64,000 nucleotides of DNA, taken from Mustelus asterias. Taxonomy: Eukaryota. The stretch lies in assembly GCF_964213995.1 (NCBI RefSeq), contig NC_135801.1, positions 16,120,001 to 16,184,000 on the forward strand, read 5' to 3'. Shown here piece by piece: positions 10,041-62,918 of this stretch. Within the stretch, counting starts at the first letter, position 1, and the number at the start of each line of letters is the position of its first letter. Under the pieces are notes generated by a model, which saw nothing but the letters and a program-made list of their open reading frames with translations, was not told where the DNA came from and searched no databases. Both the position numbers and the translations under genes were made by a program.

Positions 10041-10220
10041 AACGAAAACGGAAAATGCTGGAAAATCTCAGCAGGTCTGACAGCATGTGTGGAGAGCGAA
10101 TAGAGTCAATGTTTCGAGTCGGAATCTTCTCTCCACAGATGCTGTCAGAGCTGCTGAGATTTTCCAGCAATTTTTGTTTTTGTTTCAGATTCCAGCATCC
10201 GCAGTATTTTGATTTTATCC
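10041..10220. mobile_element. Penelope-like remnant, family B, inverted structure, inserted in a CR1 fragment
   Basis: gctggaaaatctcagcaggtctgacagcat...atgctgtcagagctgctgagattttccagc; direct repeat gggagaaattgt at 10029-10040 and 10221-10232. Confidence 0.7.
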
Positions 10221-24351: not shown

Positions 24352-24404
24352 CTGGAGGCAAAAACAATATATGAGAGAATCTGTCCAGCACAGAGAGACA
24401 ATCT

Positions 24405-24978
24405 CAATTAAACTTATAAAATACTTCAGAGGGCTTGACAGGGTAGATGCTGAGAGACTGTTTCCTCTGATTGGAGAGTGTAAAACTATGGGTCATAGTC
24501 TCAGGATGAGGAGTCGATCTTTTAGGACTGAGATGAGGAGAAATTGTTCACCTGGAGGTCTGTGAATCTTTGGCAATCTCTACCTAAAAAGGCTGTGAAT
24601 GCTCAGTGGATGAGTGTATTAAAGACTGAGAACAGCAGATTTTGAGAGACCAAAGGAATCTAAGGGATTGTAAGGGCTGCTGGGGGAAGTGGAATTGACA
24701 TCAAAGTTCAGACATGGGCTGGAACTTTCTGGCTGTTCGTGCTGGCAGGATCTTCTGGTCCCACCGCGTGTTTCCTGGCAGAGTGGGGTGCAGTCAATGC
24801 AAAATCTCATTGACACCGTTGGGACCAGAAGATCCTGCCACCGGCCACAGAGCACTGCCTCCCACTGCGAGAATGATGCCGCAGGGAGGCCAGCGAATCC
24901 TGCCCACATGCTTATTGAATGGCAAAGCAGGTTCAAGGGGCTGCATGGCCTACTACTGTTCTTATTTCTTATGATCTA
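24405..24978 (+). mobile_element. CR1 LINE 3' end interrupted by a MITE (24716-24905)
   Basis: RGLDRVDAERLFPL...FRTEMRRN; tail resumes after the MITE. Confidence 0.82.
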
Positions 24979-25185
24979 ATGCACAGAGTCTTAAATGTGT
25001 ACAGCAGATCCGGACCACTATACAGTAGGAAATCTGTCCAGTGAAGACTCAGCTCTGAGCACAGTGCTTGTCGGAAGAACAGTTCCTGGAAAGAAATAGA
25101 ATGCTTTCACAAGAGGGAGTTCCCCCTACTTCGAATCCTAGAAATAATTTGTCTCGATATGGTCAGTAAACGAGAACGGGATTAA

Positions 25186-25320
25186 AGGCAAATTGCTGCG
25201 GATGCTGGAATCTGAAACCAAAAGAGAAAAAATGCTGGAAAATCTCAGTAGGTCTGGCAGCAACTGTAAGGAGAGAAAAGAGCTGACGTTTCGAGTCCAG
25301 ACTGACCCTTTGTCAAAGCC
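25186..25320 (-). mobile_element. Penelope-like remnant, family B, with hammerhead
   Basis: gcggatgctggaatctgaaac...gctggaaaatctcag...ctgacgtttcgagtcc...gaccctttgtcaaagc. Confidence 0.72.
25281..25320 (-). ncRNA. Minimal type I hammerhead ribozyme motif, U3-A8 variant
   Basis: GGCU-UUGACAA-A-GGGUC(AGUCUG)GACUC-GAAA-CG-UC-AGCU: stem I, core, 5-bp stem II, palindromic ACGU in place of stem III, GUC triplet. Confidence 0.65.
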
Positions 25321-25359
25321 AGAACAAAGCTAATATGAAAACAGGAGTCCCAGGCTCAC

Positions 25360-25585
25360 CTTTGAAAGTAGCATGACCCAGCTTTGTGACTTGCAACTTG
25401 TGGTACATTTCTTCCTCATTGCTGCTACTTGACACTTTGCTCTCTATTAAACCCTTTTCCAGCAATTGTTCCAATGCTTGTTCTATGACTTCCAGAATGC
25501 CTTTCCCTTTGAAGAGTTGTTCCTGCTGCACACCAAGCAGAGTGCCAGCCATGAACTCAACAATTTTATCAAGTGTCTGGGCAAC
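25360..25585 (-). CDS. HELQ: HELQ exon 12
   Basis: VAQTLDKIVEFMAGTLLGVQQ...LLEKGLI...VTKLGHATFK; 226 nt; gtgagc donor. Confidence 0.95.
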
Positions 25586-57525: not shown

Positions 57526-57640
57526 GTAAGAAGTTTAACAACACCAGGTTAAAGTCCAACAGGTTTATTTGGTAGCAAAAGCCACACAAGCTTTCGAGGC
57601 TCTGAGCCCCTTCTTCAGGTGAGTGGGAATTCTGTTCACA
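57526..57640 (-). mobile_element. Penelope-like remnant, family A, with intact hammerhead core
   Basis: Single arm; direct repeat aactatctct at 57516-57525 and 57641-57650. Confidence 0.75.
57585..57621 (-). ncRNA. Minimal type I hammerhead ribozyme motif
   Basis: CAC-CUGAAGA-A-GGGGC(UCAGA)GCCUC-GAAA-GC-UU-GUG; palindromic AGCU in place of stem III. Confidence 0.65.
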
Positions 57641-60585: not shown

Positions 60586-60855
60586 TTGTGGATGTCAGAC
60601 CAGAGTCTAGGAAGGAGGTCAAGGACTTTAGAGAGGATTTGTTCAGATTGGTACCAGGAATGAGGGGCTTCAGCCAAGAAGCTAGCATTGCTCATCTTGG
60701 AGTGGAGAAGGGAGATCTTAATCAAGGTGTTAAGAATCATGATGGGTTTTGATTAAAGTAACAATTTGTTACATTGACAGAAGAATTTATAACCAGAGGA
60801 GACACATGTAAAGTAAGTGGCAGAAGAGCCAGAGATGAGGTGTGATCTTTTTTAT

Positions 60856-60984
60856 TAAAGCAAAATATTGCAGATTCTGGAATCTGAAACAAAAACAGAA
60901 AATGCTGGAAAATCTCAAGTCTGACAGCATCTGTGGAGAGAATAGAGCTCATGTTTCATGTCTGGGTGACCCTTTTGTCAGAGC
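60856..60984 (-). mobile_element. Penelope-like remnant, family B, decayed hammerhead
   Basis: Same family sequence ending gacccttttgtcagagc; flanked by ctttttta on both sides. Confidence 0.65.
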
Positions 60985-61117
60985 CTTTTTTACCTTTAAG
61001 AAGAATGGTTTGGAATGCACTGGCTGAAAGGATGCTGGAAAGGTATTAAATAGTTTCTTTCAAAATGGACTTGGATTAATAGTTGAAAAGGATATATAGA
61101 GGGTAGGATTATTAAAT

Positions 61118-62682: not shown

Positions 62683-62918
62683 GTAAGAAGTCTCACAACA
62701 CTAGGTTAAAGTCCAACAGGTTTATTTGGCAGCACTAGCTTTCGGAATCTCAGACTCCTTCACCAGGTGAGTGAAAAGCTGAGTTCACAAACAGGGCATG
62801 TAAGGAGCCTGAGACTCCCAAGAGCTAGTGCTGCCAAATAAACCTGTCGGACTTTAACCTGGTGTTGTGAGACTTCTTACTGTGCTTACCCCAGTCCAAC
62901 GCCGGCATCTCCACTTTC
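62683..62918. mobile_element. Penelope-like remnant, family A, inverted structure
   Basis: Palindromic arms plus tail; direct repeat tgaccttg at 62675-62682 and 62919-62926. Confidence 0.75.

What the first reader, a model, noticed from the sequence alone, without database searches (positions are those of the whole stretch)
25281..25320. U3-A8 variant hammerhead ribozyme 40 nt into HELQ intron 12, sense to the pre-mRNA
Seen: the minus strand reads GGCU UUGACAA A GGGUC-AGUCUG-GACUC GAAA CG UC AGCU. Every hammerhead element is present, but the CUGANGA box is UUGACAA, i.e. both C3 and G8 are changed. Known: positions 3 and 8 form a Watson-Crick pair in the active hammerhead, so U3-A8 is the compensatory substitution; Penelope-like elements carry minimal type I hammerheads with a palindromic stem III thought to act as dimers. 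Inference: the double change suggests selection for ribozyme function in the source element. The motif has a GUC triplet (predicted cut between 25285 and 25284) and lies next to the exon 12 donor at 25360, so it could affect HELQ splicing if it cleaves. Two independent CpG-like decay events could also produce it; the sister copy at ~60945-60985 has C3 with A8 and looks dead.
Basis: partly seen in the sequence, partly recalled or inferred. Interest (0 to 1): 0.7.

Follow-up and report, generated by a model that had tools for sequence, protein, structure and literature searches.

The report
Shark Penelope stub with known hammerhead
This motif is the front end of one of thousands of short leftover copies of a Penelope-type jumping gene, here in an intron of a shark HELQ gene; its swapped U-A ribozyme pair is the normal form of that subfamily and is already published for other organisms, and this lone copy is predicted not to cut the HELQ RNA.

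Summary
In detail: a minimal type I hammerhead with a U3-A8 core lies at 25320-25281 (-), from base 40 of HELQ intron 12. It heads a ~150-nt truncated insertion of a Penelope-like retroelement whose long copies encode RT, a Zn-finger linker and GIY-YIG. U3-A8 is the subfamily norm (2,630 exact 31-mers), and an older sister subfamily has C3-G8, so the swap likely arose once in an active element, probably under selection. U3-A8 is published for natural hammerheads (2011) and for Penelope-like elements (2014). An effect on HELQ is not supported. The copy is a monomer whose hammerhead fold has a predicted probability of 0.3% or less once the donor-side context is included. Two same-species contig sets show normal exon 12-13 joining, and the copy differs from its orthologue at the flanking rate. 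44 of 90 sampled copies start at the ribozyme's first base, 30 nt after a TATA box; starts at the cut site are not enriched (68 versus 58 control), so inserted templates were likely uncut. This scan noted both points before, in this genome and others. Verdict: new member of a known kind, low interest.

The parts
25281..25320 (-). Minimal type I hammerhead motif, U3-A8 core, palindromic stem III, GUC triplet; predicted cut 25285/25284; sense to HELQ pre-mRNA
   Evidence: sequence; descriptor hit, 0 in 40 shuffles
25310..25316 (-). Core box, positions 3-9, with U3 (25316) and A8 (25311)
   Evidence: 2,630 exact genomic copies of the family 31-mer
25183..25320 (-). 5'-truncated Penelope-like insertion: element positions +1 to about +137, from the likely transcription start to the usual 3' end of copies
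   Evidence: long copies carry RT, Zn-finger linker and GIY-YIG upstream
25321..25331 (-). Junction filler: a repeated start of the element plus a few bases complementary to the flank; likely an insertion by-product
   Evidence: sequence; similar doubled starts in other copies such as L052, L092, L104; inference
25333..25346 (-). Likely decayed target-site duplication, 5' copy (10 of 14 bases match 25181-25168)
   Evidence: sequence read by eye; inference
25168..25181 (-). Likely decayed target-site duplication, 3' copy
   Evidence: sequence read by eye; inference
25360..25585 (-). HELQ coding exon 12; donor at 25360/25359
24352..25359 (-). HELQ intron 12 (1,008 nt, GT..AG), skipped in spliced contigs of runs X21 and X23
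   Evidence: tables 5 and 8
60854..60985 (-). Decayed copy of the older C3-G8 sister subfamily (C3 with A8 by likely CpG decay; G17)
   Evidence: subfamily-diagnostic bases, matched by eye
57585..57621 (-). Second intact minimal hammerhead with canonical C3-G8 core, of another repeat family, in HELQ intron 1

Best explanation
The motif is the ribozyme-shaped head of a short, truncated copy of an abundant Penelope-like retrotransposon, likely a neutral passenger in HELQ intron 12 that is predicted not to cut the pre-mRNA. Shown: the family, its RT/Zn-finger/GIY-YIG frame, U3-A8 as the subfamily norm, C3-G8 in a sister subfamily, and copies piling up at the ribozyme's first base 30 nt after a TATA box. 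Inferred: the element's RNA starts at that base; reverse transcription starts internally near +137 and runs off the uncut 5' end, giving stubs like this one. Also inferred: the 3-8 pair was swapped once in an active master under selection for the hammerhead fold, which would cut only as a dimer or with the element's protein. Genomic copies then decay neutrally.
For: Copy number: 2,630 exact U3-C7-A8 31-mers, against 135 non-U3 and 72 U3 with non-A8. Of 59 copies not chosen by their core, 57 have U3 and 57 have A8, while 14 have lost G12 in a CpG. Sister subfamily: 65 of the first 100 of 1,418 matches are C3-G8, and CpG decay is symmetric, 19 C7-A8 to 22 U7-G8 (hand count; p=0.76). All 6 differences between the subfamilies inside the 39-nt motif fit the structure; random changes do so in 0.4-0.8% of simulations. 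Protein frame. 5' ends: 44 of 90 at -5..+5 (3.6 expected), 4 of 90 at +31..+41 (4.0 expected); genome-wide 68 at the cut versus 58 at a control site. TATA at -30 in 20 of 30 long copies and in 2 sister copies. Local copy: hammerhead-fold probability 0.023 alone and 0.0035 to 0.00008 in five longer contexts; exon 12-13 joint in X21 and X23; about 4 of 42 differences to the orthologous copy in organism I versus 16 of 215 in flanking intron, p=0.75. Literature: monomeric minimal hammerheads showed no cleavage (PMC4209133); the anole element's hammerhead needs its protein and uncut RNA is the template (PMC11167929).
Against: No cleavage assay exists for this motif. The local copy keeps every core base, which many sister copies have lost. 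Contigs drop rare isoforms and cannot show RNA ends; X21 and X23 are one sample and are not on record as RNA. The 3-8 swap is a single evolutionary event, and the simulation's weights are my own. The transcription start is inferred from copy ends, not from RNA. Three of the four differences to organism I inside the motif are inferred by subtraction (11 total minus 8 listed), so their positions are unknown. The 90 copies all come from the first 76 Mb of contig C1.
Confidence: 0.85

Rival explanations
1. The intronic copy cleaves HELQ pre-mRNA 75 nt after the exon 12 donor (alone, as a trans-dimer, or with the element's protein) and so tunes HELQ splicing or output.
For: Sense orientation, intact core and GUC triplet. 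The insertion is shared with a second species (record 17). The element's protein can activate a related hammerhead in vitro (PMC11167929).
Against: No stable stem III, and no partner nearby: the only other descriptor hit is 32 kb away, in intron 1, from another family. Fold probability is 0.0035 or less in context. Normal splicing is seen. Divergence matches the flank. Thousands of equal copies make a gene-specific role unlikely a priori.
Confidence: 0.05
2. The U3-A8 hammerhead was already non-functional in the source element: G8>A came from CpG decay, C3>U from drift, and the subfamily amplified regardless.
For: No excess of copies starting at the cut site. Hammerhead mutants do not impair insertion in vitro (PMC11167929). 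Naiad elements spread without canonical hammerheads (PMC8557442, passage).
Against: All six differences in the motif are structure-compatible; with the 3-8 swap included this happens in 0.03-0.14% of simulations. U3-A8 cores are reported as active in vitro (PMC3088659, passage).
Confidence: 0.15
3. The short copies are an independent ~140-nt non-autonomous element or retrozyme, copied from its own (circular) RNA.
For: Sharp, shared 5' and 3' ends in about half of the copies; no protein frame in the stub.
Against: 15 of 90 copies run seamlessly into the upstream repeat, and long ones into the GIY-YIG and RT frame. Ends lie at the TATA-defined start, not at the cut site where a circle's monomer would begin. 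No head-to-tail array of the stub was seen among the loci read, though arrays were not searched for specifically.
Confidence: 0.06

Closest known systems
Minimal hammerheads (min-HHR) in pLTRs of metazoan Penelope-like elements, including the U3-A8 variant of Schistosoma mansoni Cercyon elements (Cervera and De la Pena 2014, PMC4209133; parts 1-3 of 4 read, supplement not read)
   Same: [quoted passage not shown]
   Different: Shark host; 5-bp helix II; here the swap marks one fairly young subfamily beside a C3-G8 sister. The parts read name no shark; the unread supplement could.
Natural U3-A8 hammerhead cores (Perreault et al. 2011, PMC3088659; passages)
   Same: C3-G8 covaries to U3-A8 in nature; stated there as already shown active in vitro.
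   Different: The passages do not concern a stem-III-less retroelement motif like this one.
Poseidon element PAc of Anolis carolinensis (Frangieh et al. 2024, PMC11167929; parts 1-2 of 4 read)
   Same: Hammerhead near the pLTR-ORF junction; internal start of reverse transcription fixes the 3' ends of copies; uncut RNA is the template; no reads ending at the cut site.
   Different: PAc has C3-G8, its ORF starts within the hammerhead, and it is Penelope/Poseidon clade; this family has the Zn-finger linker of Neptune/Nematis.
Neptune/Nematis EN+ Penelope-like elements (Craig et al. 2021, PMC8557442; passages)
   Same: RT, CX2-5CxxC linker, C-terminal GIY-YIG, heavy 5' truncation, adjacent inverted copies, tail.
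   Different: No tree was built, so Neptune versus Nematis is not tested. A TATA box at -30 differs from the TATA-less internal promoter of Drosophila virilis Penelope (PMC2377424; abstract and passages).

Membership tests
EN+ Penelope-like element | RT domain and C-terminal GIY-YIG endonuclease in one frame upstream of the pLTR | tested here: met
   Long copies L249 and L250 match P0016 over RT (YIDD) and endonuclease at 55-75% identity. P0016 passes Pfam's GIY-YIG cut-off and has a below-cut-off RVT_1 hit. The family's own endonuclease fragments had no relevant Pfam hit; the copies read are broken.
EN+ Penelope-like element | Partial tandem repeat (pLTR) carrying the hammerhead, 5' truncation, inverted 5' pieces, fixed tail | tested here: met
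   L249 repeats the tail region 3,325 nt apart; many of the 90 copies carry inverted pieces (56 minus-strand hits); 3' ends cluster at one site.
Neptune/Nematis clades | CX2-5CxxC Zn-finger linker between RT and endonuclease | tested here: met
   Present in L249 and L250 translations; feature taken from PMC8557442 passages.
Neptune clade | Placement by RT phylogeny | not tested
   No reference RT set was at hand; no tree built.
Minimal type I hammerhead (min-HHR) | Core box with Watson-Crick 3-8 pair, G12-A14, A15.1-U16.1, H17 | tested here: met
Minimal type I hammerhead (min-HHR) | Helices I and II, extra base after A9, palindromic loop III, with covariation | tested here: met
   Stem II is stable alone (P 0.98-0.99); stem I is weak (0.42-0.88 alone, 0.12 or less in context). 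Stem covariation between the subfamilies is limited to one one-sided change in helix I.
Minimal type I hammerhead (min-HHR) | Self-cleavage (as dimer or protein-assisted) | not testable with these tools
   Indirect test by copy ends shows no excess at the cut site.
Non-LTR retrozyme | Protein-free tandem units bounded by the hammerhead cut site | tested here: not met
   The copy is single, starts at +1 rather than at the cut, and is the end of a protein-coding element.
Conserved intronic (host-adopted) hammerhead | Conservation above flanking intron across species | tested here: inconclusive
   One other species only: about 4 of 42 versus 16 of 215 differences, p=0.75; no sign of conservation, little power.

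The most novel reading that the evidence does not exclude
In this shark Penelope-like family the hammerhead is the first 39 nt of a TATA-driven capped RNA and works as a self-decapping off-switch, triggered by dimer formation or by the element's own protein. It was kept under selection through a C3-G8 to U3-A8 swap, and only uncut RNA gets inserted. The two subfamilies would then be a natural matched pair for testing what Penelope hammerheads are for.
Probability: 0.25. Interest if true: 0.5.

Novelty: new member of a known kind. Interest (0 to 1): 0.17.

Why it matters
For HELQ it very likely does not matter. For retroelement biology the family offers two large sister subfamilies with C3-G8 and U3-A8 cores and a record of where reverse transcription stopped. 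That record bears on the open question of hammerhead function in Penelope-like elements (called unclear in PMC8557442): here the templates that were inserted look uncut. If the ribozyme proved to remove the cap of the element's RNA, it would be a brake rather than a processing step.

Tried and rejected
Rfam scan: no hammerhead family hit at E<=10. PDB search with the exon: nothing useful. U3-G8 wobble intermediate as a sub-lineage: suggested by four loci sharing an upstream variant, rejected because 6 of 300 copies with that variant have G8, against 45 of 2,702 overall, p=0.64. Pile-up of 5' ends explained by a splice acceptor before +3: rejected because ends peak at +1 (17) over +2 (8) and +3 (6) and share no upstream exon. 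Cap-derived G as the source of the window's G at 25320: unlikely, since the orthologous copy in organism I has A there. Cleavage scars, a lead from earlier notes: 68 versus 58 matches. Among the first 30 cut-site hits I classed by eye 14 as inversion joints on the palindromic 4-mer, 10 as local mutations, 6 as small internal deletions ending at the cut and 0 as clean starts on unrelated flank; the deletions are not significant against 1-2 of 30 in the control (p=0.10-0.25). The first 5'-end mapping used a reference with mutations at +13 to +17 and was redone. No RNA holder is listed as such; X21 and X23 are treated as transcript contigs only because they skip the intron. Paper searches with no hit. 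Lunse et al. and Hammann et al. 2012 are not held.

Full report
Observation. A minimal-hammerhead descriptor gives 2 hits in the window and 0 in 40 shuffles. The exon upstream is coding exon 12 of 18 of HELQ; its peptide is identical to NCBI proteins labelled helicase POLQ-like of Mustelus asterias. Intron 12 spans 25359-24352, so the motif starts at intron base 40.

What it belongs to. The motif heads a repeat of about 137 nt (25320-25183) with 2,538 first-look candidates in the genome. A likely decayed 14-bp target-site duplication flanks it (read by eye). Longer copies continue upstream through a pyrimidine-rich repeat into a GIY-YIG-type frame, a CX4CxxC linker and an RT with YIDD. The homologue P0016 carries a Pfam GIY-YIG hit above cut-off and an RVT_1 hit below it. 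One copy, L249, repeats the tail region 3,325 nt apart. Many copies carry inverted 5' pieces. These are the features given for endonuclease-positive Penelope-like elements, and the linker points to Neptune or Nematis (PMC8557442, passages); no tree was built.

Is U3-A8 a consensus? Yes. With the same right-hand context the genome holds 2,630 U3-C7-A8 matches, 135 with another base at position 3 and 72 with U3 and another base at position 8. By hand count the first 100 of the 135 are 50 C3-A8, 29 C3-G8, 16 G3-A8, 3 A3-A8, 1 G3-G8 and 1 C3-C8; the 72 are 45 G8, 15 C8 and 12 U8. To avoid selection on the core I took 90 of the first 100 listed of 3,751 matches to a 3' anchor (my own copy and the last 9 left out; all on contig C1). 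Of the 59 that span the core, 57 have U3 and 57 have A8, 14 have lost G12 in a CpG, and mean departure from the majority base is 4.6%. The window copy differs from the family by a similar amount.

The sister subfamily. C3-G8 copies differ at a linked set of downstream bases. A pattern for them gives 1,418 matches; the first 100 are 65 C3-G8, 21 C3-A8, 8 U3-A8 (7 with the young loop), 3 G3-G8, 2 U3-G8 and 1 C3-U8 (hand count). CpG decay of C7-G8 runs equally both ways, 19 to the harmful C7-A8 and 22 to the harmless U7-G8 (p=0.76), so genomic copies show no selection. The copy at 60854-60985 is such a decayed sister copy. Between 20 young and 23 sister copies (5 of the 23 were picked as C3-G8; 3 loci dropped as young members or duplicates) 12 of 112 columns differ, 6 of them in the 39-nt motif: positions 3 and 8, two loop II bases, C17/U17 and A1.1/G1.1. 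All six fit the structure. Six random changes do so in 0.4-0.8% of simulations, and include the 3-8 swap in 0.03-0.14% (my own weights). This supports selection in the active elements, but it rests on one event. A U3-G8 intermediate lineage was looked for and not found.

Where copies begin. Counting the first base of stem I as +1 and C17 as +35, 44 of 90 copies end at -5..+5 (3.6 expected from background), 15 run further upstream, 27 end at scattered places, and 4 end at +31..+41 (4.0 expected). Inverted pieces also end there: 19 of 56 hits begin at +1. A TATA box lies exactly 30 nt before +1 in 20 of 30 long copies (the other 10 had no match to my pattern in the range searched) and in 2 sister copies with a different spacer. 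Genome-wide, apparent starts at the cut number 68 against 58 at a control site. The first 30 are mostly inversion joints on the palindromic 4-mer or local mutations. I infer that +1 is the transcription start and that the inserted templates were uncut. This matches the anole element, where reverse transcription starts internally, uncut RNA is the main template and the hammerhead cuts only with protein (PMC11167929, parts 1-2 of 4). Long copies could still come from cut and re-ligated circles, as proposed in PMC4209133; my data cannot separate that from read-through.

Does it affect HELQ? Probably not. The probability of the hammerhead fold is 0.023 for the bare 40 nt and 0.0035 or less in five longer contexts. 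Single minimal hammerheads showed no cleavage, and dimers little, in PMC4209133 (parts 1-3 of 4 read). The only other descriptor hit is 32 kb away in intron 1. Contigs of X21 and X23 (one sample) join exon 12 to exon 13 across the GT..AG intron, and the three annotated isoforms do the same; contigs hide rare forms. A contig of a second species (organism I, 34 differences in 531 bases) carries the insertion at the same place. It has about 4 differences in 42 motif bases against 16 in 215 flanking intron bases (p=0.75); three of the four are inferred by subtraction, so I cannot say whether its core is intact.

Known or new? Natural U3-A8 covariation was reported in 2011 (PMC3088659, passages), and about 1,300 U3-A8 minimal hammerheads were found with Cercyon elements of Schistosoma mansoni in 2014 (PMC4209133). 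Dimer cleavage by such motifs is cited in a review (PMC6765202, passages); the primary paper was not held. Searches for a shark case gave only one review holding all of 'Penelope-like', 'shark' and 'hammerhead ribozyme' (PMC6155905, listing only), and the search for a TATA start gave none. Unread supplements, above all that of PMC4209133, and Repbase-type collections outside the library may hold this family. Earlier unchecked notes of this scan report the same family, the same swap and the same TATA-linked start in this and other genomes; I had tested these points before seeing them.

Verdict. Observation confirmed; interpretation partly supported. It is a new member of a known kind, interest 0.17. 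The boldest reading left open is that the ribozyme is a self-decapping brake at the very start of the element's RNA (probability 0.25, interest 0.5).

Noticed in passing
window 57585-57621 (-): A second intact minimal hammerhead with a canonical C3-G8 core, from another repeat family, lies sense in HELQ intron 1.
   Followed up: partly
window 25316-25357 (-): In a short context the exon 12 donor region is predicted to pair with the junction filler and the 5' arm of stem I (P 0.5-0.9), which would shut the hammerhead; P falls to 0.01-0.06 in longer contexts. All 7 differences seen in organism I at 25320-25353 fit this hairpin, one as a two-sided change (chance 0.07, or 0.016 with a two-sided change; post hoc). 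Likely an insertion by-product.
   Followed up: partly
window 25264 and 25212 (-): The insertion brings two acceptor-like sites (pyrimidine run plus CAG) in sense orientation, 96 and 148 nt into intron 12; no joint at them is among the joints shown (64 further joints were not shown).
   Followed up: partly
L265, L267, L268, L274, L276, L282: Small internal deletions whose right end is the predicted cut site (6 of 30, against 1-2 of 30 at a control site; not significant); possible rare cut-trim-rejoin scars or slippage on A.
   Followed up: partly
window 10052-10217: Inverted pair of an older copy of the same repeat family forming a long hairpin; gives the weak microRNA-family hits in Rfam.
   Followed up: no
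runs X1, X3, X22 on window 25279-25320: Contigs from three other coded organisms match the U3-A8 motif with 0-3 other letters, so the subfamily likely predates their split.
   Followed up: no
window 62726-62837: A 112-nt near-perfect hairpin, seen only as a below-threshold Rfam hit.
   Followed up: no
L151, L152, L158, L162, L171, L172: Some copies run past the usual 3' end into a shared downstream stretch, and a few then jump back into upstream repeat sequence.
   Followed up: no
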